NCBI GenBank assembly: GCA_036611895.1
Contig: GCA_036611895.1_4766.1
Length of the DNA: 64,000 nt
Source: a phage
Reading direction: 5' to 3' (one strand)
In this document: piece after piece, positions 1 to 64,000 of the stretch
Position numbering within the stretch: position 1 is the stretch's first letter
How the letters are laid out: each line of letters begins with the position of its first letter
Translations under genes and position numbers: made by a program
The notes under the pieces: model-generated
Database searches by the model: none
What the model was told of the DNA's origin: nothing
What the model saw: only the letters and a program-made list of their open reading frames with translations

Positions 1-98
1 CCTCATTAGAGGGGCTTGTTTTTTATTGGCTTTTTAAGCCTTACTACTTTGTCGGGTAGTTCAGTACCTTTCGGTAAAAACTACCTTACACCTTTGAA

Positions 99-491
99 TC
101 AGATTGTACAACCACCACCATCACAGGTATTGTTTTCTGCAAAGGAAGCCAGAGCCTTAGCAGTCTCCTCTTTCTCATGCAGTGCCTGACGTAGCAGGTA
201 ACCCTCTAATTCCCAAATCTTATTGAATGCATTTTCATACGCATACTGACGGCCCTTCTGCTCATCATAGATGGTTGGGTCTACACAGGCAGATACGCCT
301 TCAACTTTAAAGTTGTTTTCCAGGATGATAACACAATAGGTTACCAGACCCAGGTTAGCCAAATCATCTGCCGGGATTGCAGAGGGGTCAACGAATGCAG
401 ACTTCACTGCATCAGCACCATTGAAATAGTAGACGCTCTTAATCTTAGCTTCGATTGCTTCTTTACTTACTGTTGCCATTATTAGCCTCAT
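99..491 (-). CDS. hypothetical protein
   Basis: 130-aa ORF at the left edge of the minus-strand block; no recognisable motif. Confidence 0.4.
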   Translation of the reverse strand: MRLIMATVSKEAIEAKIKSVYYFNGADAVKSAFVDPSAIPADDLANLGLVTYCVIILENNFKVEGVSACVDPTIYDEQKGRQYAYENAFNKIWELEGYLLRQALHEKEETAKALASFAENNTCDGGGCTI

Positions 492-543
492 AGAGTGGTT
501 TGAATATGTACTTAAACATGGTTGCGTTTATTAGTACTCAAAT

Positions 544-1981: not shown

Positions 1982-2394
1982 ATAGGGGAGGGAGGACGAG
2001 TCCCTCTTTACCCTATGATTTAGTTTGCATGTAAGACCTAACAATTCGATGCTGTAGGTAGCTATGCTATCCGACATTTAACCCAGCCCATATAGGGGCT
2101 TATGTGATTAAAATGCTCAACATTGAGCGGTTAGTTGATAAGGGATCTGAAGCCTTATCCCAAAGATACTAACCTTTGGGATATAGCCTAAGATTCAGAA
2201 ATGGCCCCTATAGGGAGAGGCCATTGATTAACCCGAATGTTGCTTTACATTTTCTGTGATAACCCATTCTTAAAATAGTCTACCTGACGGATGGGCATAA
2301 ACCCTAGCGTCAGTGCCATACGGCAAAGATTAAGTTAAGAAAGGTTATGATAGGAGTTCCTATCTCAAAGGATTCTAACAGAACCCTTCACGAT

Positions 2395-2566
2395 ATTAAC
2401 TACTCTTTTTTAATGCTTCTACTTCACCATCTTTATACCAAACATATGGTACTAAGATTTTGCAGCCTTCTGATTCAATGTGAAATGCTTTCTTTCCTTC
2501 AACGGGTTCTCCCCCCATGAAAGAACTAACCTTTCCATTGAACCAGTGAATAGTAAATTTGTTCAT
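2395..2566 (-). CDS. small hypothetical protein (56 aa)
   Basis: ATG-initiated ORF MNKFTIHWFNG... in an otherwise ORF-free stretch; weak RBS; below the track cutoff. Confidence 0.25.
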
Positions 2567-2800
2567 ATTAGTCTCAATTGAACCAATGGACTTCGGAGAG
2601 TATTAAAGTCCACTGGTTCGGTTGTTGTTGTTACTCTGGCGGCTTGTCACCACCGTGTTTACCACTGCATTTCCACAGGATAATGACAGTGATGATAAAA
2701 GCTATGTATGGAGCCGACACGTCTATAATCCTGACCAGTAGTAGCATCAGGACTATAAACACTACCACACCTAGCAGCAGATTCTGAGCCACCTACCAGA

Positions 2801-3238
2801 TTAACTACGTTTAAGGCCAGCGAACAGTGAAGGCTTAGTAGCAGGTTTCTCTGCTGGTTCTTCGGCCTTAACCTCTTCCTGCACAACTTCTTCTTGTGCT
2901 TCTGGTTCAGCTACTGCTTCTTCAGGATCCGGCGTAGAACTCTCGTTCTGACCACCAGTAGAGGTCTGGGTTTCTTCTACCTTTACCTCTTCAACAGCTT
3001 CTTCCGGCTCTGGTTCTACCGGACGGTGTTTAGCTTCTTGAGGATTCTTACGAGAACGGCGAGTTTTCTTCTCTACTCCCACGGGTGGAGTGTCTTCGTG
3101 AACCTCTTCGTTAATACCAACGGAGGCAGTACCATCTGCATTGATGACAATATTAATGTCACCAGCAAGATTGATTTGATCATCAACATAAGCCTGTACA
3201 GCAGCTTCTACTTCGGACTGGTTCAAAATGATTTGCAT
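2801..3238 (-). CDS. hypothetical acidic protein
   Basis: 145-aa ORF with a strongly acidic, Glu/Pro-rich C-terminal half; 1-nt gap to the next gene. Confidence 0.5.
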   Translation of the reverse strand: MQIILNQSEVEAAVQAYVDDQINLAGDINIVINADGTASVGINEEVHEDTPPVGVEKKTRRSRKNPQEAKHRPVEPEPEEAVEEVKVEETQTSTGGQNESSTPDPEEAVAEPEAQEEVVQEEVKAEEPAEKPATKPSLFAGLKRS

Positions 3239-3239
3239 A

Positions 3240-3794
3240 TTACGCCTTTAATAACTTAATAAGGTTCTGGAAAGCTGGTAGATTTACGCCAGCATGGATT
3301 GCACCGATTGCATCAGCTAAGTGCTCATTCTTATTCAGAAGTTTGCCCTTCTTATCGGTGAGCCAGTTGGCTTCAGGATAGATGGCATGAGCAGCACGAA
3401 TCATCGTGTCTTTGGATGCAGTTTTATCACCGACCAGTGCAAGTTTGTTTTCAATTGGGGATACTTCAAAGATTGGACAACCCAATGCACGAAATGCACC
3501 GATTAATCCTACGCATACACCATAGGATTTCATACCGTTAGCAGACTGAGAGCCTACTGGTACTTCTACGAATACTGCTTTAGCAGATCGTAACCATTCC
3601 TCACAACCAAGAAACAAATCGTAAGCGGCTTGTATATCTTTGGAGTTGGTTCGAACTTGTTTGTTGTGGTCAACTTCAGTTTGAACCAGTTTAAGTTCGA
3701 CCTGCTCGAAGACGCCGGACTCAATGTCCAGCATCCCACGAGCTAAACCCCAATTGCGGAGACTAATGTCTGCACCAACAATTGGGATTTTCAT
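3240..3794 (-). CDS. RuvC-like Holliday junction resolvase
   Basis: N-terminal IVGADIS, mid VFVEVP and C-terminal EHLADAIGAIHAG resemble the RuvC catalytic D, E and HxADA motifs. Confidence 0.55.
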   Translation of the reverse strand: MKIPIVGADISLRNWGLARGMLDIESGVFEQVELKLVQTEVDHNKQVRTNSKDIQAAYDLFLGCEEWLRSAKAVFVEVPVGSQSANGMKSYGVCVGLIGAFRALGCPIFEVSPIENKLALVGDKTASKDTMIRAAHAIYPEANWLTDKKGKLLNKNEHLADAIGAIHAGVNLPAFQNLIKLLKA

Positions 3795-4591
3795 TAACGT
3801 TTACCGAACAGAGATTTACCACCAGCAGGAGTAGTACCCGTACCAGCACCTGGTTTAGGAGGTAAGCCACCTTTACCATTACCACCAGCAGAACTCTTAG
3901 TCTTGTCACGAGTTTTGCCTTTGTTCTTTTCCAGCCATGCTGCATAGAATACAGCCAGTTCTGGGGTCAGCTCTTTTTCAGCCTTCTCTGCTTCCTGAGC
4001 CTCGACGACTGTGACCAGCAGTTCCGGGTGAAACACTTTCTGAATCTCGTTTACTTCACGGGTTTCACCGGAGTCAACGTAGCCGTTGTCACCTTTAACC
4101 TGCTTGGATTCCAGAACTTTTTCCAGAGCGAAGGTAACAGTTTGACCAACCAGTTCAACTGGAACCATGACAGATTTATTAACTTCTGCTTTAGCGTCGT
4201 AGTCATAAACTTTGACAATCTTCTCTTCGAAGTCTGCTTCAGGCAGTTCAGTACCGGTAGCCATCAGCATCATGTCGTTAATGACAGTGTAGCCAGGCAA
4301 GAAGTATTCTTTACCGTTCTTCTCGTAAGTCGGCTTGTTGCCTTTAGCATTACCAGAAGTGAAGTACACCTGAGCACGGAACTCACCGGCAGGTACGCCA
4401 TCAGAGTTTTTCAGGTCTTCAATGATTAACTGCATCCAGTCTGCACCAGAGTCAGCTTTACCTACGTAAGCTACTTTTACAGTACCGGTGTAGATATCGG
4501 ATTCTTTTGCACCGAAGCCACCACCACCAAGGGAGTCTTTTACAGCTTCAACGTTTTTGGTTTTTTCTTTCAGATTACTGAACAATGACAT
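3794..4591 (-). CDS. single-stranded DNA-binding protein-like (N4 SSB-like by size and position)
   Basis: 265-aa ORF with a Gly/Pro-rich flexible C-terminal tail, located downstream of the replication genes; assignment by synteny. Confidence 0.4.
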   Translation of the reverse strand: MSLFSNLKEKTKNVEAVKDSLGGGGFGAKESDIYTGTVKVAYVGKADSGADWMQLIIEDLKNSDGVPAGEFRAQVYFTSGNAKGNKPTYEKNGKEYFLPGYTVINDMMLMATGTELPEADFEEKIVKVYDYDAKAEVNKSVMVPVELVGQTVTFALEKVLESKQVKGDNGYVDSGETREVNEIQKVFHPELLVTVVEAQEAEKAEKELTPELAVFYAAWLEKNKGKTRDKTKSSAGGNGKGGLPPKPGAGTGTTPAGGKSLFGKR

Positions 4592-14894: not shown

Positions 14895-15120
14895 AGCTTA
14901 TTTCCTCTTCAAAGATAGCCTCACTTTATTATAAGTGAGGCTATTTGAACAGGCTAGGACTGGTTCTTATACCATTCCCCGAACTCTTTCATTGCATCTT
15001 CTAAGGACAAGCCTTCAAAGAATTGACCAAAGTGTCCGTTGTACGTCACACAAATCCTTGTAACGGTTTACTTTAGGGGTGTGATTACTTCCCGTATAAC
15101 CACCTTATCAATGCTAATCA

Positions 15121-17181
15121 TTACTTAGTAGCCTTGATCAGCTTGGTAGCTAACTTAGTTTCTTCTTCAGTCAGTCCCATTGCAGTGAATGACTTCTTAG
15201 CATGACGCTTATAGTCTTGCAGAGCATGGCCTTTCTGATAGTCAGAGTACGTCGTATCGTTAAGGATGCTACGCAGATTATCAGCGTGTTTACCAGACGG
15301 AGCTACTTTAGTGGCAGCAGCAGAACGTGTAGGTTTAACTGTCTTATCCTGCTTAACAGCTTTAGGTTTACCAATAGGTTTAGCTGTATAGGTAGCACGT
15401 ACATCAGCAATCTTAGCTACTACATCACTACCTACACCGAATGCACCCCAAGGCTTTCTGGCTTTGGAACGCAGTTCTACCAGAAGGTCAGCAGCAGCTA
15501 ACTTATCTTCCGGTGTTGTTGCATTAAGGAACTCTTTGACTAGTTCCTGGATTTGTTCTTTCACAGTAGGAGCCTTCTTAATAGCAGGTTTAAGGTCAGT
15601 AGCTTTCACTGGTTCAGCAGCTACAGCTTCATTCAGCGACTCTTCCATGTTCAGCGCTTCTTTGCTAGCGACTGTACGGAATTGTTCTACAGAACCAGAT
15701 GTGAGATTAGTGTATTTGAGGTTAGTACCACGATGACCACCAACCATAATAAGTGTGGTAGGTGAACTATGGTTCCCAACGATGGCATCATTAAGCAGCT
15801 TCTTACCTACCTCTGTCTTAGACAGATAGATACCGCTGTTAACGTTAAGACGTTCCTCTTCCGGTAGTTCAGCAATAATATGATATGCAGATACACGCAT
15901 CTTATTGGTGCTGTACTCAGGAACAGCAAATACATCTTCAGGTGCTACTTTACCAAGGATAGTTACGTCACCACCGAAGCTACGGATATAGCTCATGGAT
16001 GCTACGTGCAGACCGTTAGAACAATCCTGACGACGGTCAGGGTCTACCAGGTCTTCACGTACCTGAACTTTACAGCCTACCCATTGACGAATTCTACCTG
16101 AGTGACAGTCAACGAATACACGTCTACCATTTTCTGCGTCTTTATACTTCAGACGCTTCAGGAACAGGATTGAACCATCATCAGCAATAGGTAGCTCAGC
16201 AGTTTCCATGAATTTCATCAGGTCTTCTACTGAGTGCAGACGGTCTTTAATAACCGGAGCCAGACGCTCAAGGAACTTAGTAAAGCCCTTGTAGTCTTTC
16301 AGCTGGGCAGACTGACGTAGATGACGATGCAGGTTTTCAACTCCGGGGATAACCCCATTATTGGTAACAGCAACAACCACTTCGTCTTCCTTCACTTCGG
16401 TGTGAAAGTTAGCATCATCAGTACTGATAGCACCTAATGCAGCCAGCTTCTCAGAAGCAGCAGCCAGCTTATCCTGGTTCGTAGTTTTAGCTATTTCTAC
16501 ATAAGGAGATGGCGTTACATCACGACTGGTAAATACAATGTGTACTCCTTTGATGTGCTGAGCTTGTTTAGCAAACTCACTCATTTCATCATCGGATACT
16601 GCACGAATTGCAATAGGCCATTCTCGTGCAAGGATACGATTGGTATGGTCATAACCCCAACTCAGTACGTCATTGATAAAACGAACCAGTGCAGGATGGT
16701 TATGGTCCTTATCCCAGCCAGTAACCCACATCAGGTTTTCACGTCTGTCGTAGAAACCATCAGATACAGTTACTTCTGGTTCATTAGCCTGTACAGCCAG
16801 GAAGGTATCCATAGCTTTAGATACTAACGTCTTAGTAGGATTGCCCAGCTTAATATCTGAGACGATATGTGCAGGAGGAACACCTGTACCATCCTGGAAG
16901 AACTCTTTAAGTTTAGCTTTAGCTACCTTGAAGAAACGGACGAATCCGTTGGTGTTCTTCTCTGCTTCTAGATACTCAGTACGTAATGCTACTTCTGGCG
17001 CAATGTTTACTTCTACCAGGTCTTTGGTGGTTCCCAGACCTTTGGTTTGTGCTTCAGATACAATGCGAGCAACCCGTGGGTCGTTCTGAGGATATACAAT
17101 TGTGGAGCCATCAGGCTTCCACAGTGTGAGGTTACGACTGTCAACTGCCAGTGCGATGATAGAAATCAGTTCGATTTTCAT
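15121..17181 (-). CDS. rIIB: rIIB-like protein
   Basis: 686-aa ORF immediately downstream of the rIIA-like gene; assignment mainly by pairing and size. Confidence 0.4.
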   Translation of the reverse strand: MKIELISIIALAVDSRNLTLWKPDGSTIVYPQNDPRVARIVSEAQTKGLGTTKDLVEVNIAPEVALRTEYLEAEKNTNGFVRFFKVAKAKLKEFFQDGTGVPPAHIVSDIKLGNPTKTLVSKAMDTFLAVQANEPEVTVSDGFYDRRENLMWVTGWDKDHNHPALVRFINDVLSWGYDHTNRILAREWPIAIRAVSDDEMSEFAKQAQHIKGVHIVFTSRDVTPSPYVEIAKTTNQDKLAAASEKLAALGAISTDDANFHTEVKEDEVVVAVTNNGVIPGVENLHRHLRQSAQLKDYKGFTKFLERLAPVIKDRLHSVEDLMKFMETAELPIADDGSILFLKRLKYKDAENGRRVFVDCHSGRIRQWVGCKVQVREDLVDPDRRQDCSNGLHVASMSYIRSFGGDVTILGKVAPEDVFAVPEYSTNKMRVSAYHIIAELPEEERLNVNSGIYLSKTEVGKKLLNDAIVGNHSSPTTLIMVGGHRGTNLKYTNLTSGSVEQFRTVASKEALNMEESLNEAVAAEPVKATDLKPAIKKAPTVKEQIQELVKEFLNATTPEDKLAAADLLVELRSKARKPWGAFGVGSDVVAKIADVRATYTAKPIGKPKAVKQDKTVKPTRSAAATKVAPSGKHADNLRSILNDTTYSDYQKGHALQDYKRHAKKSFTAMGLTEEETKLATKLIKATK

Positions 17182-30983: not shown

Positions 30984-31036
30984 CGCTTATTCTCCTAAAT
31001 ATGATTAATAACCAAAAGCTGCGGAGCAGCTATTAC

Positions 31037-35480: not shown

Positions 35481-35519
35481 TTACATCATCCATAAGACGC
35501 GGAGCGTCTTGGTTTTGGC

Positions 35520-35789: not shown

Positions 35790-35842
35790 GAGTAAACTCC
35801 TGAATTAAAATGATATCCAATAGAAGCGGAGCTTCTTGGTTT

Positions 35843-55966: not shown

Positions 55967-58621
55967 ATGGGCTTATTCAGTGGGAAGACCAAAGTATACG
56001 TAGCATCCTCTGTCTATAACATGGCAGGGGATATTCACAAACGTCCTAACTATATGAAGACTGTAGTCATTGGTAACATTATTTCCAATACAGGATTCAC
56101 TATGGCAGACACTATCTCTGATAGTTATCTGAATGGACCCGGTATTCGTATGCGACTGTTCTCCAGCTGGAGTAAGAACCACTATGATTCAGAAGTTGGT
56201 ATGGCTGGTTCTTCATTAGGTGTACTGGCTAAGATTGACCCTACTGTAATAGAGGGTCAAATTACACCTCCTGCTGGGGAGTCTGTTTATGTTCAGGCAG
56301 CAGAGATTGGCTTTGCTGATTTTGAGCAATGGTGTGACCAGTACCTTTATGAGAATGCTCCAAGTCGAATCATGGAACGATTCGACGTAGACATTGATGA
56401 GGATACCAATGAAATTACTATGACCTCCCTGGATGGAGGTTCTACTATTAAATTCACACCTACCAACTTTGAACCAGGTGCTTTGTATCTCTATGCTGAT
56501 TACACGTCCTATAAGTCCCCTACTACTAATCCACCTGTAGTAGGACCGACTACTGTCTATGATGATGAGGATGACTTACCCTCTACTTTGTTATGGACTA
56601 CCATCTCAAGTGATACTACGGCCAATTCAACTAACCTTACCAAAACTATACATACTCATTCTGTTTACTCTGATGGCAGACCTGATGAAGACAGTACTGT
56701 CATTGAACCAAGCATAGATAATTGGAACTCTTACGTTAAGGTTTATCGTAGAGGATTCACTGAGAAACCTGATGATGTGACTGTAGTTGTATCTGACAGG
56801 GTAATGACCCATAGAAAGTTCGGTGAGATTCAGTCCAGTACTGCTGTAACTACCAATGTAGTAGATATTGGTGGGGGTGTTACTCGCACAGACACAATCA
56901 CTACAACCACAGAGACACTGGTTCGTAAGTACTCATCTCAGACTACTCGTACTGACACAGAGATGACTGCTGTTGGTACACCTAAGATGCTTATCTATAA
57001 ACAGAACTCTGGTAATGTTGCACTGGATTCTCTGTTTGAGACTGAGGCTACTGATAACCGATTCTACCCGTTCATTCCAATCAGGAATGATAAACGATGG
57101 GTAGAAAATGACCCAATCTACCCACACTGTAAGAAAGCTCTTTATAAAGCTACTGGTGGAAAAATTGATAAAGTAGTCACGGAGCTTAAGAAGAATGATG
57201 ACATAGGTGATATTCAGTACATTTATGGCACATTTGGTGTATCTCTTAATACCCCAGAAGATGCTGCTAAGGAATACATCTACCGTTTCTTTCAGATGGC
57301 TACTGAAGCATTCCCACCTGACCCAACCTACCCGACTTTGGAAGCAGTAATTGCAGGTTATCAGGCAGCTAATGATGCAGTTGATGCATATGTAGAATGG
57401 TGGAACAGGACTGAAGGGCATACTATTGGAACTCCTCCACCACTGCCAGAATACCCTGTAATACCTAAACGAGAGTTTAGAGTGCATAGTAATAAGCATT
57501 ATAAATACGACATGACCATTGGTTGGAACTATGTGTCTGAAACTACACATTCAGGGCAAGCATGGGCTGGGGCTAAGCAGGGACAACTACGAGCCAGATA
57601 TGCAGGAGATATAACCCTTACTCGCAAGAACATAAGGACAGCTTCTAACTCCGGTTCTGCTAAGAAACTTGAGGTAACATATACATTCTATTCAATGCAG
57701 GAGTATGAGTTACTTTGGCAGGATGGTAATAACACTTACCGTAAACTCAGAGTATTGGGCCTAAACCACAATAACAGGGTATATAAGAATAAGTCAGTGC
57801 ACATTGATGTTGCTGAAGCAATGGGTGATGCAGAAGAAAGTGGATTCATTATTCCACTGCACACTAACATTTACCGTTCAATGTCACTGGTTCGAAGTAC
57901 TCAGCTATCTACTGCCTGTTCCTACTTAGTGATGAACTCATATAAGAAGGTTAAGCAGAAATGGTATCAGACCGGGGCATTTAAGATTGTTGTTGTAGTG
58001 GTTGCTGTGGTTATTTCTGTATTTACAGCCGGTGCTGGTGGTGCAGGCATACTTGGTGCATATGGTGCAGTTGGTGCTTCACTTGGTTTTGTTGGATTAG
58101 CTGCTGTGATAGTTGGTGCTGTAGCAAATGCTATTGCTGGAATGATTCTGGTATCCATTATCACTAAAGTATCCACATCACTGTTCGGTGATAAATTGGG
58201 CTTTATTATTGCAGCTATTGCCTCAATGGTAGCTATGAATGTTGGTACTGCCCTGTCTACCGGTACATCTCTGTCCACTCTGGCAAGTGAAATGATGAAT
58301 GCCCAAAACATCATGCAGCTTACCAGTTCAGTAGGTAATGGTATTAGCCAGTATATTAATGCATCTACGGCTGCTACTATTCAGAAAGCAGAGAAAGTAA
58401 TGCAGCAGTACAATACTGATATGATGGCAATCAATAAGCAGTATGAAGAAATGTTTGGTACTGCTGGACAGGGTGTAATTGACCCTATGCAATTCGTGTC
58501 AATGGAGTCACTGGATTCATTCTTATCACGTACTCTTATGACTGGTTCAGATATAGCCGACATGTCTTTAGACATGATAGGTAACTACTCTGACATGACC
58601 CTTAATACTGACCTAGTTTAA
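55967..58621 (+). CDS. large virion protein with C-terminal multi-TM region
   Basis: 884 aa; residues encoded around 57970-58320 form consecutive Gly/Ala/Val-rich hydrophobic helices. Confidence 0.45.
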   Translation: MGLFSGKTKVYVASSVYNMAGDIHKRPNYMKTVVIGNIISNTGFTMADTISDSYLNGPGIRMRLFSSWSKNHYDSEVGMAGSSLGVLAKIDPTVIEGQITPPAGESVYVQAAEIGFADFEQWCDQYLYENAPSRIMERFDVDIDEDTNEITMTSLDGGSTIKFTPTNFEPGALYLYADYTSYKSPTTNPPVVGPTTVYDDEDDLPSTLLWTTISSDTTANSTNLTKTIHTHSVYSDGRPDEDSTVIEPSIDNWNSYVKVYRRGFTEKPDDVTVVVSDRVMTHRKFGEIQSSTAVTTNVVDIGGGVTRTDTITTTTETLVRKYSSQTTRTDTEMTAVGTPKMLIYKQNSGNVALDSLFETEATDNRFYPFIPIRNDKRWVENDPIYPHCKKALYKATGGKIDKVVTELKKNDDIGDIQYIYGTFGVSLNTPEDAAKEYIYRFFQMATEAFPPDPTYPTLEAVIAGYQAANDAVDAYVEWWNRTEGHTIGTPPPLPEYPVIPKREFRVHSNKHYKYDMTIGWNYVSETTHSGQAWAGAKQGQLRARYAGDITLTRKNIRTASNSGSAKKLEVTYTFYSMQEYELLWQDGNNTYRKLRVLGLNHNNRVYKNKSVHIDVAEAMGDAEESGFIIPLHTNIYRSMSLVRSTQLSTACSYLVMNSYKKVKQKWYQTGAFKIVVVVVAVVISVFTAGAGGAGILGAYGAVGASLGFVGLAAVIVGAVANAIAGMILVSIITKVSTSLFGDKLGFIIAAIASMVAMNVGTALSTGTSLSTLASEMMNAQNIMQLTSSVGNGISQYINASTAATIQKAEKVMQQYNTDMMAINKQYEEMFGTAGQGVIDPMQFVSMESLDSFLSRTLMTGSDIADMSLDMIGNYSDMTLNTDLV

Positions 58622-58634
58622 CAGGAGAATCCCT

Positions 58635-59078
58635 ATGGATTTGTCATTCTTAACAGGCAACCAAACCCCACAGCCAGCTGCTATGTCTTGGATGTCTAAT
58701 AACAATCAGAACTTTAATACCCCGGCTATGAACTATAACCCTGGTGCTGCTATCGGTATGGGTACAAATTTGGGGGCAACTTCCCCTACTTCTTTCATGT
58801 CGGGTTCAGCTAATCAGTTGGGCCTGAATGTACCCACCTTCCAGTTAGGACTGGGTGCACTTGGTTCATTAGCTAATATCTATAGTGGTTTCCAGGCCAA
58901 TAAGTTAGCCAAAGACCAGTTGAACTTTACTAAGAGTGTTACTAACACTAACCTGAATAACCAGATTAAGTCTTATAACACTGCACTGGAAGACCGTGCT
59001 CGTAGCCGTGCTGTTGCAGAAAACCGTGACCAGTCTTCAGCTGATGCTTACATTGCAGCTAATAAATTAACCCGTTAA
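58635..59078 (+). CDS. virion protein
   Basis: 147-aa Asn/Gly/Ala-rich ORF. Confidence 0.4.
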   Translation: MDLSFLTGNQTPQPAAMSWMSNNNQNFNTPAMNYNPGAAIGMGTNLGATSPTSFMSGSANQLGLNVPTFQLGLGALGSLANIYSGFQANKLAKDQLNFTKSVTNTNLNNQIKSYNTALEDRARSRAVAENRDQSSADAYIAANKLTR

Positions 59079-59090
59079 TAGGAAACCATC

Positions 59091-61037
59091 ATGGCTCAAA
59101 TTACATGGCGTAATGTTGATGCACCTAACTTCTCTGGAGTTGGTGACAGCATTCGCACATTTGGTAGCATGATTGGTAACGCCACCTCCGGCTTAAGTGA
59201 TGCACTGGGTAATTTCCAGAACGCTGCCAAGCAGGAGGCTGGCAATGCCGTCATGATGAATGCTATGCAGTATCAAGACCCTACTGAGTATCGTAATGCT
59301 TTGGCATCCGGTGCATTGTTCCAGGGGGTTGACCCTTCACTCGTAAACCAACATACCCTGCAGAATCTGGATGAGCGAGCAGGTACTCTGTTGACCCAAC
59401 AAGGTCAGCAGGGAATTAATGACTACAATGTTTATCGTTTTGGTCGTTTACAGGATAATGACTCTGCATTAGATAATGCATCTCCAGCTATTCGTTTACT
59501 GTCTGAGGCTTATCAGTCTGGCGACCAGAATCGTATTAATGCAGCATTGAGTCAGACTCGTGATGCACTGTCTGCACTTCCTGCTGACCAACAACTGGAT
59601 ATGCTGAGCCGTCTTCAAGGTCAGGGTGGTCAGGCTATTAACCAAGCACAGAACCGCTTTGATTTGGGTGTGGCTCAACGCAATGATGCGGATTCACAAG
59701 CTGCATCCGGTATATTGACGGACATTTTCCGCAGTGCTTCTACACCTATGGATGCTCTTACACTGGCAGAGTCTGCTATGAAGAATGCTTCTCCTGGTGT
59801 ACGTGCTGCAATCATGCGAGGTGTGAACCAGAGGTTCCCGGGTACTTATGCTGCATCCCCTTCTGGCTCTTCTCCAGGAACTGCTGGTACTCGTTCTGGT
59901 TCCCCTTACGATGCAACCTATACCTTTGCAGCTACTGATAAGCCTATTACTGAGATGACCCTTGGTGAGGTTACTAACCATCAGCAAACTATGATTAATA
60001 ACCCATCACAAGGTCATTCTCCTGTAGGTGCATTCCAGATTAATAAAGCTACCCTGGAAGACTATGCTCCTAAGGTGCTTGGTTCAAATTGGCGTAATCA
60101 GCAAATGACTCCTGAAGTGCAGGACAAAATAGCTGAAGCAATCTTCAATGACCGTAAGAATGGTAACCTTTCTAAGACTTGGGCTGCATTGCCTGACCTT
60201 GGTGTGGGTGGTTATAAGGACATGCCTTGGAGTGAAGCACGTCAGTTAATTGCACAGGCAGAGGTAGGTGCATCTCTTGAGCAGTTACAGACCCAACAAG
60301 TAGTTTCAAACATGGCAGGCAATACAGTTGCTGCACGTCAGTCTGAAGATAATACTGGAACCATTACTGCTAACTATGCTCGTGCATTACGTGATAACTC
60401 TACCATTGGTGAAGTAGCAGACCGTCTTCTTAAGGATGCTTTTAAAGGTTCTGAGAAAGGATGGATGATAGCTCGACTGAATGATGTTATGCAGGAATCC
60501 GGACAGTCTCCTGCTGTAGCTGCTGAGATTCTTAAGCAGTCTACTACCAACGTACCGGAAGGTATGATTAGTCGAGCACTCGATGCACTTAACCCATTTA
60601 TCTCCAATGAAGGTGGTGGTGGTATTCGCATTGATGATACCGTTGCCAGAGAACTGGCACGTTCAGTACGTCGTGGGGAAGGTATTGAAGCTACTGCTCG
60701 TGATAGTGTTCTTACTCAGGTGCAAGGTAATATTGCAAATGCCCAGAACCAGGTAACGCAAGCAGAAGCCTTACTTGCTGATACTCGCCGTCGTGTAGCT
60801 GCTGGACAAAGTGGGCTTGCTGCTACTATTCCTGCTCGTGAGGCTGAGTTAGTAAGAGCACGGGCTGCACTGGATGCTGCTGTCAATACTGTGGTAGCTA
60901 ACCAAGGAAACCTGGTTCCACAGAACTTCCGTTCTAATGCTTCAGTAGAACGTGAGCGTAGTCGTGAAGATGAAGAACGAGCTAGACGTTATCGAAAATT
61001 AGCAGAGGGTTTACCTCCCTATATGCAACCTCGATAA
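59091..61037 (+). CDS. large virion protein (possible peptidoglycan-hydrolase-like motif)
   Basis: 648 aa; SPVGAFQINKATLEDY loosely resembles the lytic-transglycosylase GxxQ motif. Confidence 0.35.
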   Translation: MAQITWRNVDAPNFSGVGDSIRTFGSMIGNATSGLSDALGNFQNAAKQEAGNAVMMNAMQYQDPTEYRNALASGALFQGVDPSLVNQHTLQNLDERAGTLLTQQGQQGINDYNVYRFGRLQDNDSALDNASPAIRLLSEAYQSGDQNRINAALSQTRDALSALPADQQLDMLSRLQGQGGQAINQAQNRFDLGVAQRNDADSQAASGILTDIFRSASTPMDALTLAESAMKNASPGVRAAIMRGVNQRFPGTYAASPSGSSPGTAGTRSGSPYDATYTFAATDKPITEMTLGEVTNHQQTMINNPSQGHSPVGAFQINKATLEDYAPKVLGSNWRNQQMTPEVQDKIAEAIFNDRKNGNLSKTWAALPDLGVGGYKDMPWSEARQLIAQAEVGASLEQLQTQQVVSNMAGNTVAARQSEDNTGTITANYARALRDNSTIGEVADRLLKDAFKGSEKGWMIARLNDVMQESGQSPAVAAEILKQSTTNVPEGMISRALDALNPFISNEGGGGIRIDDTVARELARSVRRGEGIEATARDSVLTQVQGNIANAQNQVTQAEALLADTRRRVAAGQSGLAATIPAREAELVRARAALDAAVNTVVANQGNLVPQNFRSNASVERERSREDEERARRYRKLAEGLPPYMQPR

Positions 61038-61054
61038 AATCTTACATACTAATA

Positions 61055-61079
61055 AAGCCCCATCCGGGGCTTTTCTCTT
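61055..61079 (+). terminator. rho-independent terminator
   Basis: AAGCCCC-ATCC-GGGGCTT followed by TTTCTCTT. Confidence 0.6.
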
Positions 61080-61140
61080 ACATTCACTTACTGTACAGTG
61101 AATCTTCTTATACGATATAAGTTTGAACAGGAATCATGCT

Positions 61141-64000
61141 ATGTCAACATTTGACCGTCTGGCAGGTTTCGCAGACAGCATCACTACTGCTAAGCAAGTC
61201 GATGTCTCTACTGCAACCTCTCGGAAACAAGCTGAACAAGGGCAAAGCCCTTTCCAATTAACTCCTCAGAATGCCTACCAATTACAGGCAGGACGTGCCG
61301 GTGACTTAGGTGCTGGTGCATTTGAACCAGGTTCTATTCAGGCAGATTTTACTAATGCCTCCCCCCTTGAAATCGTAAACAAGTATGGCAATGAGCAAGG
61401 AATGGACATTCTCAATGCTCGTGTCAATGCAGCTAATTCTGTTCGTCGTGATTTAACTAAGAGTCGTACTTATGGTGAAGCACTTGGTGATACCCTTTCT
61501 GGTGTTGGTCTTGGTGTTGCTAATACCCTTGGGGGCATTGCTGCTCTTGGCACAGGTTTGGTCAATGATAATGCCGGGGCAACCATTGCTTCCAGTCTTG
61601 ACTGGTTGAATAAAGGTGTACACAACCTACAGTCTGATGCACTGAATGCTCGCCGTAATGTAGTACAGAACCAGAACGTAATATCTGCACAGGAAAATGA
61701 GAAACAGTATAAGCAGGATATTGCTGAAGGAGAAAGTGAACTCGTTGCTTCCTTGTCTCGCATTGGTCGTGATGCTTACGATTCTGTCGCTAACACTTTG
61801 TCTAATGGCATGGCTGCTACAGATGGTCTGGCTGAGGGTGTTGGTTCACTGTTTACTGGTGGTCCACTTATCCGTGGTGTATCTGCACTAGGTAAGGTAA
61901 TGGTAGGTGGTGATAAAGCTGTTAAGGGCATTACCTTAGCTGCTGAATTAGGTTCACGTCCTGCACGAATTGCACAGTCTGCTGGTCGTGTTGCTGCACC
62001 TGCTATAGCAATTGGTGGTATGGAAGCTGGTGGTGCATACCAACAGACTGCTAATGAAATTATGGAAATGCCATTCAGTGAACTGGCTGCTAAATCTCCT
62101 GTATACCAACAGCATATTAAAGACGGTTTATCTACTGAAGAAGCACGACGTCAGACTGCATCTGAAACAGGTATCACTGCTGCTGGTTTAACTGCTCCAG
62201 TTGCTGCTCTTACTGCTCCACTGGTATCCAAGTTTGAACTTAATCCACTTAAGGTAGGTTCACTGGCTGGTGCTGGTTCTAACATGCTGCGAGAGACTGT
62301 AGAAGAAGGTATTCAGTCTGGTACAAGTCAGTTTGCACAGAACAAGGCAATCCAAGGTAATGTTGATGCATCTCGTGACATCCTCAAAGGTGTAGGCGAA
62401 CAAACTGGTCTTGGTGCATTGTATGGCTTTGGTTCTGCTGGAGTTGCTCAAGCTCCTGGTGCAACTGTTAAGGCTGCTGGTGCTGCCGTTGGTCCTGCTG
62501 TACGTACTACCCTGGCTGGTGCTTCTCTGGCTGGTAAGGCATTAGCAAAAGTAGCTTCTCCTATTACTAACATCCTGGTTCAACGTGGGGAAGAAGTTGC
62601 TAAGCGTAATGAACAAGCATCCCCTGTATCTGATGCTACGGTTAACGCTGCTGCACAGGAAGCTACTGCTCAGGCAGAACAAGCACAAGCAACTGTACAG
62701 GAAGCAGTAGATGCAATGGATATTTCTCCAGAAGAGAAAGCTGCTGCTACTCAGTATGCTGCTGACTTAACTCAGGTAATGAAGTTTGATCCAGTAGAAC
62801 TGGAACAAGCTAGTCCAGTAGTCCGTGAAGCTGTTTCTGGTTCCACTAACCGTGTTGAAGCTATTCAGAAGATGGCTGACCTGGTTAATACTGCTGAAGA
62901 CCCTAACGTTCAAATGGAAGCTGCAATCCAGATGTATGACAACATTATGTCTATGGATAGCTTCATTAACCGTGATCCAGGTGCATTAGCTAATCTGGAA
63001 CAGGGTTCTCCTGCTGCTAATATTGTTGATCAGTTCTCCGGTCTGATGGCTAATGTACAGAATACACCGAAGGTACTCCGTGCATTCCGTGCCATTCATT
63101 CCATGATTCAGGAACAGGCAGAAGCAGGTAAACTGAAAGCTACTGAAGAAGCTAACCAAGCCCAAGCAAACAACATTGCTATGGCTGCTGATATGTCTCC
63201 AGAAGTGCTGGACGCAGATTCAGTGAACATGGTTCTGAAACATGCAAGTGAAGGTAAGATTACATTGGGGAATCGTCAGCGTGCTGCCCTGCAATCTGCT
63301 GCTGCTCTATTGCAAGGAGCACGGGAATTTGACGCTAAAGCAGAAGAACTAGGCTTACGTCCTCAAGACATTGTTAGTAAACAGATTAAAACCGACGAAT
63401 CTCGTTCTAATGAAGGTCAGTACTCTGCGTTGCAACATGCTAAACGCATTCGTTCTGCGTACAACTCTGGTAACTTCGATTTGGCTTCCGCTTATCTCGA
63501 CGACTTTATGAAGTTCGCCCAGCACATGCAGAATAAGGTCGGAGCGTTGAATGAGCATCTGATTTCTGGGAATGCGGATAAGAATAAGTCTGTCCATTAT
63601 CAGGCTCTTACTCCCTCGCGTGAATGGGTACGTAGTCGTACTGGCCTCGGTGTCAATCCGTATGATACCAAGTCTGTTAAGTTTGCCCAACAAGTAGGAC
63701 TGGAAGCCAAGACCGTAGCTGATATTGCTAACGCACTTGCTACGGCTTACCCGGAGCTTAATGTTTCTCATGTGAAAGTTACCCCATTGGATTCACGTCT
63801 GGACAAGCCTGCTGCCCAGGTAGTTAAAGAGTTCCGTCAGGGCAATCTTGATGCTGCTCAATCCCAACAGACCAATGAACCAGTGAATCAGGTTGATGAA
63901 ACTCCTGTTACAAAACAGGAACCAGTTACCCCTACTGTACAGACTAAACCCTCTGTTAGTGAAGCTGTTAAAACAGAACCCACTATTAAAGAGTCTAAAC
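61141..64000 (+). CDS. giant virion protein, 5' part only (candidate virion RNA polymerase)
   Basis: Frame opening at ATG 61141 stays open by manual translation through the window end (more than 950 codons); Ala/Gly/Gln-rich; N4-like position after the internal virion proteins. Confidence 0.45.
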   Translation, partial: MSTFDRLAGFADSITTAKQVDVSTATSRKQAEQGQSPFQLTPQNAYQLQAGRAGDLGAGAFEPGSIQADFTNASPLEIVNKYGNEQGMDILNARVNAANSVRRDLTKSRTYGEALGDTLSGVGLGVANTLGGIAALGTGLVNDNAGATIASSLDWLNKGVHNLQSDALNARRNVVQNQNVISAQENEKQYKQDIAEGESELVASLSRIGRDAYDSVANTLSNGMAATDGLAEGVGSLFTGGPLIRGVSALGKVMVGGDKAVKGITLAAELGSRPARIAQSAGRVAAPAIAIGGMEAGGAYQQTANEIMEMPFSELAAKSPVYQQHIKDGLSTEEARRQTASETGITAAGLTAPVAALTAPLVSKFELNPLKVGSLAGAGSNMLRETVEEGIQSGTSQFAQNKAIQGNVDASRDILKGVGEQTGLGALYGFGSAGVAQAPGATVKAAGAAVGPAVRTTLAGASLAGKALAKVASPITNILVQRGEEVAKRNEQASPVSDATVNAAAQEATAQAEQAQATVQEAVDAMDISPEEKAAATQYAADLTQVMKFDPVELEQASPVVREAVSGSTNRVEAIQKMADLVNTAEDPNVQMEAAIQMYDNIMSMDSFINRDPGALANLEQGSPAANIVDQFSGLMANVQNTPKVLRAFRAIHSMIQEQAEAGKLKATEEANQAQANNIAMAADMSPEVLDADSVNMVLKHASEGKITLGNRQRAALQSAAALLQGAREFDAKAEELGLRPQDIVSKQIKTDESRSNEGQYSALQHAKRIRSAYNSGNFDLASAYLDDFMKFAQHMQNKVGALNEHLISGNADKNKSVHYQALTPSREWVRSRTGLGVNPYDTKSVKFAQQVGLEAKTVADIANALATAYPELNVSHVKVTPLDSRLDKPAAQVVKEFRQGNLDAAQSQQTNEPVNQVDETPVTKQEPVTPTVQTKPSVSEAVKTEPTIKESK

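What the first reader, a model, noticed from the sequence alone, without database searches (positions are those of the whole stretch)
61141..64000. Start of a giant ORF that runs off the window, candidate virion RNA polymerase
From the ATG at 61141 the frame stays open for more than 950 codons to the window end (manual translation, no stop seen). It follows the internal virion protein genes and a terminator. In N4-like phages the gene at this position is the roughly 3500-aa virion RNAP whose polymerase core lies in the middle, which would explain why no polymerase motifs are visible in this N-terminal part.
Basis: inference. Interest (0 to 1): 0.45.

Follow-up and report, generated by a model that had tools for sequence, protein, structure and literature searches.

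The report
N-terminus of N4-like virion RNA polymerase
The open frame is the first 953 codons of the giant virion RNA polymerase gene of a G7C/N4-like coliphage: it covers the membrane-binding N-terminal "injection" domain and not the polymerase itself, and this is a well-known, already annotated gene.

Summary
Observation confirmed. From the ATG at 61141 the frame is open for 953 codons to the window end, while the other five frames hold 22-110 stops. Substitutions against relatives are mostly synonymous.

Interpretation supported. The window is a Gamaleyavirus (G7C/St11Ph5-like, Schitoviridae) genome. The 953 aa are 98% identical to residues 1-953 of the 3,595-aa "virion RNA polymerase" of phage ShWW44. 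They are 61% identical, and colinear, with residues 1-957 of N4 gp50.

The part inside the window is the N-terminal domain (NTD, aa 1-~903) plus the start of the low-complexity linker. The polymerase core of relatives lies at aa ~1132-2211, beyond the window.

The upstream genes are orthologues of N4 gp53, gp52 and gp51, followed by a terminator. Four N4-type hairpin promoters lie in the window's early region.

Among 74 related loci, 65 of the 67 whose ORF end lies within the contig carry one uninterrupted ORF of 3,200-3,873 codons. The window lacks only about 8.3 kb of a ~72.4-kb genome, which is the size of the rest of the gene.

The window's own continuation could not be retrieved. One metagenomic relative has an in-frame TAA three codons past the point where the window ends.

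Verdict: ordinary, already known, low interest.

The parts
61141..64000 (+). 5' part (codons 1-953, plus 1 nt) of the virion RNA polymerase gene (N4 gp50 orthologue). It runs off the window end.
   Evidence: Open frame. 96% nt and 98% aa identity to the ShWW44 vRNAP. PHROG 2206 at E 8e-248. Aligns to PDB 9pnr/11gp residues 1-957.
61258..62460 (+). NTD helical subdomain 1 (aa ~40-440). It holds the most conserved, Gly/Ala-rich hydrophobic blocks of the NTD family.
   Evidence: AF2 model: all-alpha, pLDDT mostly 80-93 except the loop at aa 250-281. Conserved blocks at aa 292-302, 345-365, 387-399 and 418-435 in 28 diverse vRNAPs.
61492..61569 (+). Hydrophobic Gly-rich segment 1 (aa 118-143, ...GVGLGVANTLGGIAALGTGLV...), a candidate membrane-inserting helix.
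   Evidence: Kyte-Doolittle 19-residue peak of 1.38, also present in N4 and in the family average.
61828..61905 (+). Hydrophobic segment 2 (aa 230-255, ...LAEGVGSLFTGGPLIRGVSALGKVMV). It corresponds to the start of the membrane-spanning helices predicted for N4 residues 224-278.
   Evidence: N4 prediction and nanodisc insertion of the NTD: PMC13434306.
62170..62235 (+). Hydrophobic segment 3 (aa 344-365, GITAAGLTAPVAALTAPLVSKF), the strongest hydrophobic peak and one of the best conserved blocks.
62608..63849 (+). NTD helical subdomain 2 (aa ~490-903), including the conserved block FAQHMQNKVGALNEH (aa 792-805).
   Evidence: AF2 pLDDT mostly 80-95. Conservation. Near-identity with N4 over aa ~740-890.
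63850..64000 (+). Start of the low-complexity P/T/Q/E/K-rich linker that joins the NTD to the polymerase domain (N4 residues 907-1006).
   Evidence: P/T/Q/E/K make up 58% of aa 901-950. pLDDT is below 50 for aa 904-953. Linker described in PMC13434306.
61054..61079 (+). Intrinsic terminator after gp51 (8-bp stem, 4-nt loop, T-rich tail).
   Evidence: Fold of -13.1 kcal/mol, z -4.2. Conserved in all 12 distinct relatives including N4.
61082..61103 (+). Second inverted repeat (ATTCACT-N8-AGTGAAT) between the terminator and the gp50 start. Its function is unknown.
   Evidence: An inverted repeat lies at this position in every relative, with different arm sequences. 82% of cells are paired against 23-43% when the partner is slid, and 2 pairs change on both sides. 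It is weak as an RNA hairpin (-5.5 kcal/mol, z -1.6).
61105..61140 (+). Near-invariant leader block with a -10-like TATAAG (61116-61121) and the Shine-Dalgarno AGGA (61129-61132). It is a possible late promoter and the ribosome-binding site of gp50.
   Evidence: Alignments. The promoter reading is inference only; the consensus scan found no sigma-70 site.
59091..61037 (+). gp51 orthologue (648 aa), an ejection protein.
   Evidence: PDB 11mn '66 kDa protein' at E 3.6e-115. Role: PMC13434306.
58635..59078 (+). gp52 orthologue (147 aa), an ejection protein.
   Evidence: PDB 9yf4 '16.5 kDa protein' at E 7.6e-46.
55967..58621 (+). gp53 orthologue (884 aa), the tail plug.
   Evidence: PDB 9yft 'Gp53' at E 0. 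Role: PMC13434306.
36668..36682 (-). N4-type vRNAP hairpin promoter (ACATGC-TCC-GCATGT). Its flanks are homologous to N4 P1.
   Evidence: Four such hairpins were found against 0.2 expected in shuffles.
35822..35836 (-). N4-type vRNAP hairpin promoter (AGAAGC-TCC-GCTTCT), resembling N4 P2.
35494..35510 (-). N4-type vRNAP hairpin promoter (AAGACGC-TCC-GCGTCTT).
31017..31031 (-). Fourth hairpin of the same type (AGCTGC-TCC-GCAGCT). It is the counterpart of the N4 hairpin at 4546-4562, upstream of the RNAPII subunit gene.

Best explanation
The ORF is the 5' 27% of the single giant late gene for the virion-encapsidated RNA polymerase (vRNAP, the N4 gp50 orthologue) of a Gamaleyavirus. The piece in the window encodes the N-terminal domain (aa 1-~903) and the first ~50 residues of the flexible low-complexity linker. 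It does not encode the enzyme.

Likely mechanism, by transfer from N4:
- A few copies of the ~3,600-aa protein are packaged in the head.
- On infection gp52 and gp51 are expelled first and build the channel through the outer membrane and periplasm.
- The vRNAP follows N-terminus first, as loosely linked 'beads on a string'.
- The all-helical NTD inserts its Gly/Ala-rich hydrophobic helices into the inner membrane and, with the gp51 C-terminus, forms the inner-membrane part of the ejectosome.
- The linker tethers the refolded polymerase and C-terminal domains in the cytoplasm.
- There the polymerase transcribes from gyrase-extruded hairpin promoters at the leading genome end and so pulls in the DNA.

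Shown here: the ORF, its orthology, synteny, the two-subdomain helical model, the conserved hydrophobic segments, and the hairpin promoters.
Shown in the literature for N4 only: membrane (nanodisc) insertion of the NTD, its flexibility, and the requirement for genome injection.
Inferred: that the same holds for this phage, and that the ORF continues to about 3,595 codons.
For: - ORF and coding signal.
- Orthology.
- Full-length gene and RNAP core in relatives.
- Synteny with gp51, gp52 and gp53.
- NTD family: 589 cluster representatives, nearly all of the best 150 being 3,300-4,240 aa with the NTD at residues ~1-900.
- 65 of 67 IMG/VR loci whose ORF end lies within the contig have one ORF of 3,200-3,873 codons.
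- The Pol/CTD part is absent from the rest of the window, and window nt 1 lies 362 nt downstream of the equivalent of the ShWW44 vRNAP stop, so only ~8.3 kb is missing, the size of the rest of the gene.
- Four N4-type hairpin promoters against 0.2 expected.
- AF2 model with two confident helical blocks and a disordered tail.
- Conserved hydrophobic Gly-rich segments.
- Literature: NTD in nanodiscs, predicted membrane helices at 224-278, linker 907-1006 and the ejection model (PMC13434306); NTD unresolved and flexible, with a proposed membrane and injection role (PMC13492108); NTD needed for injection and CTD for encapsidation (PMC4496689, citing unpublished data).
Against: - The window ends at codon 953, so continuity of this genome's ORF is not observed, and its source sequence was not found.
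- One 90%-identical metagenomic relative (L005) has an in-frame TAA at codon 956.
- The hydrophobic segments are only moderately hydrophobic (Kyte-Doolittle 1.1-1.5) and rich in Gly/Ala, so they are not classical transmembrane helices.
- No solved structure resembles the NTD model.
- The membrane role rests on N4 in-vitro data and on unpublished genetics.
Confidence: 0.95

Rival explanations
1. The gene is naturally split in this phage. A stop codon or frameshift in the linker just after 64000 would make the window's ORF a stand-alone NTD ejection protein of about 955-1,100 aa, with the polymerase and C-terminal domains translated separately (or by readthrough or restart).
For: - L005 (ENA metagenome scaffold, NTD 90% identical) has one in-frame TAA at codon 956, three codons past the window end. 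The frame is otherwise open for 3,575 codons, and a GTG restart is called 11 codons later.
- Eight cluster representatives are 905-1,125 aa long and none is 1,126-2,476 aa.
- L065 carries a stand-alone 1,102-aa NTD homologue.
Against: - The last 200 nt of the window are almost identical to ShWW44 and St11Ph5, which read through the linker without a stop, whereas the L005 linker is diverged.
- 65 of 67 loci whose ORF end lies within the contig are uninterrupted.
- Several of the short proteins end in out-of-frame-looking tails, which points to indel errors in a low-complexity stretch.
- The pSb-1 split is a 1-nt deletion in a CCC run.
Confidence: 0.03
2. The ORF encodes some other large internal virion, ejection or tape-measure-like protein that has no RNA polymerase attached.
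For: - No polymerase motif or Pfam domain falls in the 953 aa.
- BFVD gives weak structural hits to proteins carrying an LT_GEWL domain or a 'large polyvalent protein-associated domain'.
Against: - 98% identity over all 953 aa to the N-terminus of annotated 3,595-aa vRNAPs.
- Colinear with N4 gp50 residues 1-957.
- The genome carries hairpin promoters that need a vRNAP, yet no polymerase domain is encoded elsewhere in the window.
Confidence: 0.01
3. It is a chance open frame or a non-coding stretch.
For: None.
Against: - The chance of such a stop-free run is about 2e-25, and the other five frames are full of stops.
- 89 synonymous against 19 non-synonymous codon differences from ShWW44.
- 589 homologous protein clusters.
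Confidence: 0.001

Closest known systems
vRNAP (gp50) of Gamaleyavirus phages ShWW44, St11Ph5, pSb-1, EC1-UPM and other G7C-like phages
   Same: Same gene at the same position. 95-96% nt and 97-98% aa identity over all 953 codons with no gaps, with an identical intergenic leader and terminator.
   Different: Only 19 amino-acid substitutions against ShWW44, with a small cluster at aa 276-281 in the low-confidence loop. The window's exact sequence is not in the collections searched.
Bacteriophage N4 gp50 virion RNA polymerase (PDB 9PNQ-9PNW, 11GP, 11GO, 11FW; mini-vRNAP 2PO4, 3C2P, 3Q0A)
   Same: Colinear homology of the NTD (61% identity, residues 1-957). Same NTD-linker-Pol-CTD domain order in the full-length relatives, same neighbouring genes gp51-gp53, and the same type of hairpin promoters.
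   Different: Gamaleyavirus vRNAPs are 3,595 aa against 3,500 aa in N4. They carry about 120 extra residues between the linker and the Pol domain (aa ~990-1131 of ShWW44), which lies beyond the window.
Pseudomonas phage DEV gp71 (a Schitoviridae vRNAP)
   Same: Giant ejected vRNAP with an alpha-helical NTD that has no similarity to known structures, encoded next to two ejection-protein genes (PMC10925440).
   Different: Much lower sequence similarity. The NTD is shorter (residues 1-760) and the polymerase lies at residues 820-1,900.
T7 gp16 (internal virion protein forming the inner-membrane complex of the ejectosome)
   Same: Functional analogy only. It is the largest ejected protein, is proposed to bind the inner membrane, and couples genome entry to transcription (PMC13434306).
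   Different: No sequence or fold similarity was detected. T7 gp16 recruits the host RNAP, whereas the N4-type protein carries its own polymerase.
crAss-like phage phi14:2 gp66 virion RNAP
   Same: A virion-packaged, ejected RNA polymerase (PMC13434306).
   Different: An unrelated fold (it resembles multisubunit RNAPs), a single globular protein, and no NTD-type module is reported.

Membership tests
N4-like virion RNA polymerase (gp50; PHROG 2206) | N-terminal ~900-aa domain homologous to and colinear with N4 gp50 residues 1-~906 | tested here: met
   phmmer against PDB full-length N4 vRNAP: query 1-952 aligns to chain 1-957 at 1202 bits. 60.9% identity. PHROG 2206 at E 8e-248.
N4-like virion RNA polymerase (gp50; PHROG 2206) | One giant ORF of about 3,300-4,200 codons | not testable with these tools
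   The window ends at codon 953 and the source genome was not found. Indirect evidence: relatives at 96% nt identity have 3,595 codons; 65 of 67 loci whose ORF end lies within the contig are uninterrupted; the missing ~8.3 kb fits the rest of the gene.
N4-like virion RNA polymerase (gp50; PHROG 2206) | T7-like single-subunit RNAP core in the middle of the protein (Pfam PF21867, PF21624, PF21894, PF21769; mini-vRNAP) | not testable with these tools
   The core lies outside the window. In ShWW44 the Pfam domains fall at aa 1426-2170 and mini-vRNAP aligns to aa 1132-2211. None is present in the window's 953 aa or elsewhere in the window.
N4-like virion RNA polymerase (gp50; PHROG 2206) | Position directly downstream of the gp53-gp52-gp51 tail-plug and ejection-protein genes, on the same strand | tested here: met
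   The gene order is identical in ShWW44, St11Ph5 and N4.
N4-like virion RNA polymerase (gp50; PHROG 2206) | The genome carries the enzyme's cognate hairpin promoters (5-7 bp stem, 3-nt loop, GC closing pairs) at the early end | tested here: met
   Four stem-GC-TCC-GC-stem hairpins, all on the early-gene strand, against a shuffle mean of 0.2. The N4 P1 and P2 counterparts were identified with the same scan.
N4-like virion RNA polymerase (gp50; PHROG 2206) | Protein is packaged in the virion and ejected into the host | not testable with these tools
   This needs virion proteomics or infection assays. It is established for N4 (PMC4496689 and PMC13434306).
vRNAP NTD as a membrane-associating ejection module | Conserved hydrophobic helices able to insert into lipid, and two helical subdomains followed by a disordered linker | tested here: inconclusive
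   Family-conserved hydrophobic Gly/Ala-rich segments at aa 118-143, 230-255 and 344-365. AF2 model with two confident helical blocks and a disordered tail. Hydrophobicity is moderate, and actual membrane insertion is shown only for the N4 NTD in nanodiscs (PMC13434306).

The most novel reading that the evidence does not exclude
In this phage, as in metagenomic relative L005, the vRNAP frame might be interrupted in the low-complexity linker just beyond 64000. The NTD would then be made as a separate membrane-anchoring ejection protein, and the polymerase and C-terminal domains would be made by restart or readthrough. More broadly, the linker might be a recurrent natural break point that lets Schitoviridae uncouple the injection module from the enzyme.
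Probability: 0.03. Interest if true: 0.4.

Novelty: already known. Interest (0 to 1): 0.07.

Why it matters
It matters little as a discovery. The gene is annotated in dozens of GenBank Gamaleyavirus records at 90-96% nt identity, and its N4 orthologue is the subject of decades of biochemistry and of two 2026 cryo-EM papers.

The check is useful for annotation:
- It fixes the start codon, the domain content of the window (NTD plus the start of the linker, not the polymerase), the terminator and the leader.
- It shows that several public records misname this gene: 'DNA polymerase' in HK2, PD205 and U1G, 'gram positive anchor domain protein' in ECBP1, and three split CDSs in pSb-1.

The NTD is still the structurally unresolved part of vRNAP. 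The conserved Gly-rich hydrophobic blocks listed here are reasonable targets for mutagenesis.

Tried and rejected
- Recovering the window's own genome beyond 64000 failed. Exact-protein look-ups of gp51 and gp52 found nothing. Exact search for the last 51 nt found nothing in viral, metagenome or genome contigs.
- The word-indexed homologue search with the NTD returned only 3 proteins, probably because Ala/Gly-rich words swamped the candidate list. The exhaustive HMMER search was used instead.
- Pfam on the 953 aa gave only sub-threshold noise (TcaA_5th, FAM110_N).
- Foldseek of the NTD model against the PDB gave no meaningful match (best E 0.13, TM 0.14 or less, generic helical repeats). No fold-level analogue, T7 gp16 included, can therefore be claimed.
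- The consensus promoter and terminator scanner missed the real terminator and found no sigma-70 promoter upstream.
- Rfam found nothing in 58000-64000.
- I considered that the gene is commonly split at the linker, because of L005 and the length cluster. I rejected this as a general rule after measuring 74 loci and seeing frameshift-type tails in the short proteins.
- Minus-strand ORFs inside the gene (61470-61763, 62260-62451, 63355-63771) were treated as spurious because the plus frame carries the selection signal. They were not tested individually.
Full report
**Observation**

Translation from the ATG at 61141 to the window end gives 953 sense codons and no stop. The other five frames of the same stretch contain 22-110 stops. 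At the window's base composition, a stop-free run of this length has a probability of about 2e-25. The nearest upstream in-frame stop is at 61099. The only in-frame starts after it are TTG 61123 and ATG 61141. The ATG has an AGGA 8 nt upstream and is the annotated start in relatives. Against the closest relative, 87 of 115 nucleotide differences are at third codon positions, and 89 differing codons are synonymous against 19 non-synonymous.

**Identity**

- Megablast places the stretch in Gamaleyavirus phages (Schitoviridae, Enquatrovirinae; G7C/St11Ph5-like). Identity is 96.0% to Escherichia phage vB_EcoP_ShWW44 and 95-96% to HK2, nithesis, pSb-1, St11Ph5, ZQ2 and EC1-UPM. The matched feature is mostly annotated 'virion RNA polymerase'.
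- In ShWW44 and St11Ph5 the gene is 10,788 nt, or 3,595 aa.
- The window's 953 aa are 98.0% (ShWW44) and 96.9% (St11Ph5) identical to residues 1-953, without gaps. They are 60.9% identical to N4 gp50 residues 1-957.
- They match PHROG 2206 'virion RNA polymerase' at E 8e-248. They also match the full-length N4 vRNAP chains in the PDB (9PNR, 11GP, 11GO) colinearly at 1202 bits.

**Where the polymerase is**

The full-length ShWW44 protein aligns to the N4 mini-vRNAP crystal structures (2PO4, 3C2P, 3Q0A) at aa 1132-2211. It carries the four Pfam vRNAP domains at aa 1426-2170. Nothing of the kind is found in the first 953 aa. [quoted passage not shown]

Two 2026 cryo-EM studies of N4 vRNAP define the domains. 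The NTD is placed at residues 1-906 or 1-919, the low-complexity linker at 907-1006, Pol at 1008-2104 and the CTD at 2123-3500. In both studies the NTD was present in the sample but unresolved (PMC13434306; PMC13492108). In the window, P/T/Q/E/K content jumps to 58% from aa ~901, which marks the same linker.

**Context**

- The three genes upstream on the same strand are orthologues of N4 gp53 (tail plug; PDB 9YFT, E 0), gp52 (16.5-kDa ejection protein; 9YF4, E 7.6e-46) and gp51 (66-kDa ejection protein; 11MN, E 3.6e-115).
- gp51 is followed by an intrinsic terminator at 61054-61079 (-13.1 kcal/mol, z -4.2). It is conserved as far as N4.
- A scan for N4-type early promoters looked for a stem of at least 5 bp ending in GC, a T(T/C)C loop on the coding strand, and a GC-started return arm. 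It recovered P1 and P2 in N4. In the window it found four sites, all on the early-gene (minus) strand: 36682-36668, 35836-35822, 35510-35494 and 31031-31017. The mean in shuffles was 0.2. The genome therefore carries the cis elements that only a vRNAP uses.

**Does the ORF continue?**

The window's own continuation could not be found. Three indirect lines of evidence argue that it does continue.

1. The NTD family has 589 cluster representatives. Nearly all of the best 150 are proteins of 3,300-4,240 aa with the NTD at residues ~1-900.
2. In 74 IMG/VR loci found with a diverse alignment, 65 carry one uninterrupted ORF of 3,200-3,873 codons measured from the NTD match. Seven run off a contig end and two stop early.
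3. tblastn with ShWW44 vRNAP residues 954-3595 finds nothing in the window. Window nt 1 aligns 362 nt downstream of the ShWW44 vRNAP stop, in the same orientation. The window is therefore a circular permutation of a ~72.4-kb genome from which only ~8.3 kb is missing, exactly the remainder of the gene.

The counter-example is L005, a metagenomic scaffold whose NTD is 90% identical. It has a single in-frame TAA at codon 956, inside the linker, with the frame otherwise open for 3,575 codons. Its linker is diverged, however. The window's last 200 nt are nearly identical to ShWW44 and St11Ph5, which read through. I put the probability of a split in this genome at about 3%.

**Anatomy of the part in the window**

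An AlphaFold2 model built with 28 diverse sequences has mean pLDDT 76.9 and is entirely alpha-helical.

- Confident blocks lie at aa ~40-249, 282-439 and 488-903.
- Low-confidence stretches lie at aa 250-281, 440-487 and 904-953.
- This matches the 'two globular helical subdomains plus linker' predicted for N4 (PMC13434306).

The best conserved blocks across the family lie in subdomain 1 and are rich in Gly and Ala:
- GGMEAGGAYQQ (aa 292-302)
- ITAAGLTAPVAALTAPLVSKF (aa 345-365)
- VEEGIQSGTSQFA (aa 387-399)
- VGEQTGLGALYGFGSAGV (aa 418-435)

Family-conserved hydrophobic peaks fall at aa 118-143, 230-255 and 344-365. The second coincides with the start of the membrane-spanning helices predicted for N4 (residues 224-278). 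Foldseek finds no solved analogue. In BFVD the model matches only the N-terminal pieces of other Schitoviridae vRNAPs, plus a few weak hits.

**Mechanism**

By transfer from N4, the NTD is the injection and anchoring module.

- gp52 and gp51 leave the virion first and form the channel through the outer membrane and periplasm.
- The vRNAP follows, led by the NTD, which associates with gp51 and inserts into the inner membrane.
- The ~100-residue linker lets the polymerase and the autoinhibitory CTD refold in the cytoplasm while staying tethered.
- Transcription from the hairpin promoters then draws in the genome (PMC13434306; PMC13492108; PMC4496689; PMC10925440).

The basis differs by step. Lipid (nanodisc) insertion of the NTD was shown in vitro for N4. 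The genetic requirement of the NTD for injection is cited in the review as unpublished data. Transfer of all this to the present phage is inference from 61% identity and conserved architecture.

**Comparison and novelty**

This is the gp50 orthologue of a G7C-like phage and is already known. It differs from ShWW44 by 19 residues in the window. The only family-level difference from N4 lies beyond the window: about 120 extra residues between the linker and Pol. Interest is low.

Noticed in passing
L005 12866-12868 (ENA ERZ28618834, scaffold_286): A 90%-identical relative has a single in-frame TAA at codon 956 of the vRNAP frame, inside the low-complexity linker. The frame is otherwise open for 3,575 codons. 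The gene caller splits it into a 955-aa NTD ORF and a 2,608-aa ORF holding the polymerase and C-terminal domains, with a GTG restart 11 codons later in the same frame. Whether this is a real split, readthrough or an error is unresolved.
   Followed up: partly
Proteins P0020, P0026, P0040, P0080, P0100, P0105, P0110 and P0142: Among the best 150 NTD homologues, eight are 905-1,125 aa long and none is 1,126-2,476 aa. Several end in Arg/Ser/Pro-rich tails that look out of frame. The linker therefore seems to be a hot spot for frame breaks, or for indel errors, in assemblies.
   Followed up: partly
L065 9926-13234 (IMGVR_UViG_3300047477_000034): A distant NTD homologue (31% identity) is a stand-alone 1,102-aa ORF. 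It is followed by ORFs of 284, 375 and 283 aa with no Pfam hit and no polymerase domain. This could be an NTD-only ejection protein or a chimeric contig.
   Followed up: partly
L006 / L008 (Shigella phage pSb-1, NC_023589), equivalent to window nt 63815: The pSb-1 vRNAP is annotated as three CDSs. The first break is a 1-nt deletion in a CCC run, most likely a homopolymer sequencing error.
   Followed up: yes
window 61082-61103: A second inverted repeat lies between the gp51 terminator and the gp50 start. It is present at the same place in all 12 distinct relatives but with different arm sequences (ATTCACT/AGTGAAT, CTTACT/AGTAAG, CACACT/AGTGTG, ACACTA/TAGTGT). 82% of cells are paired against 23-43% when the partner is slid, and two pairs change on both sides. 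It could be an operator, an RNA hairpin or a DNA hairpin.
   Followed up: partly
window 61105-61140: A near-invariant leader block, TTCT.ATA.GATATAAGTTTG.A.AGGAA, is conserved from Gamaleyavirus to N4. It contains a -10-like TATAAG 19 nt before the ATG, and may be a late (N4 SSB-dependent) promoter for gp50.
   Followed up: no
window 31017-31031 (minus strand): A fourth vRNAP-type hairpin (AGCTGC-TCC-GCAGCT) lies about 4.5 kb from the three clustered early promoters. Its N4 counterpart (4546-4562) sits just upstream of the RNAPII subunit gene gp15. I did not determine whether it acts as a promoter or a terminator.
   Followed up: no
L001 about 14970-15390 (ShWW44 vRNAP aa ~990-1131), beyond the window end: Gamaleyavirus vRNAPs carry about 120 residues of apparently non-low-complexity sequence (LNKYGDRRDSPWLFADGTVVGSNGDH...) between the linker and the Pol domain. 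N4 lacks this stretch, and it has no Pfam match.
   Followed up: no
window 1-528: Window nt 1 aligns 362 nt downstream of the ShWW44 vRNAP stop, in the same orientation. The window is therefore a circularly permuted, reverse-oriented copy of the standard N4-type map, and the physical genome ends lie inside it, near 36.7 kb.
   Followed up: partly
GenBank records PP514361 (HK2), ON922919 (PD205), MZ394712/NC_070872 (U1G) and JX415535 (ECBP1): The same gene is annotated 'DNA polymerase' in the first three phages and 'gram positive anchor domain protein' in ECBP1. These are annotation errors in public records.
   Followed up: no
AF2 model of window aa 1-953 against BFVD: Besides vRNAP N-termini, there are weak but high-probability Foldseek hits to uncultured-phage proteins annotated 'LT_GEWL domain containing' and 'large polyvalent protein-associated domain'. 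E-values are about 1e-3 and TM-scores 0.15-0.2. This hints that the helical module may occur in other ejected proteins.
   Followed up: no
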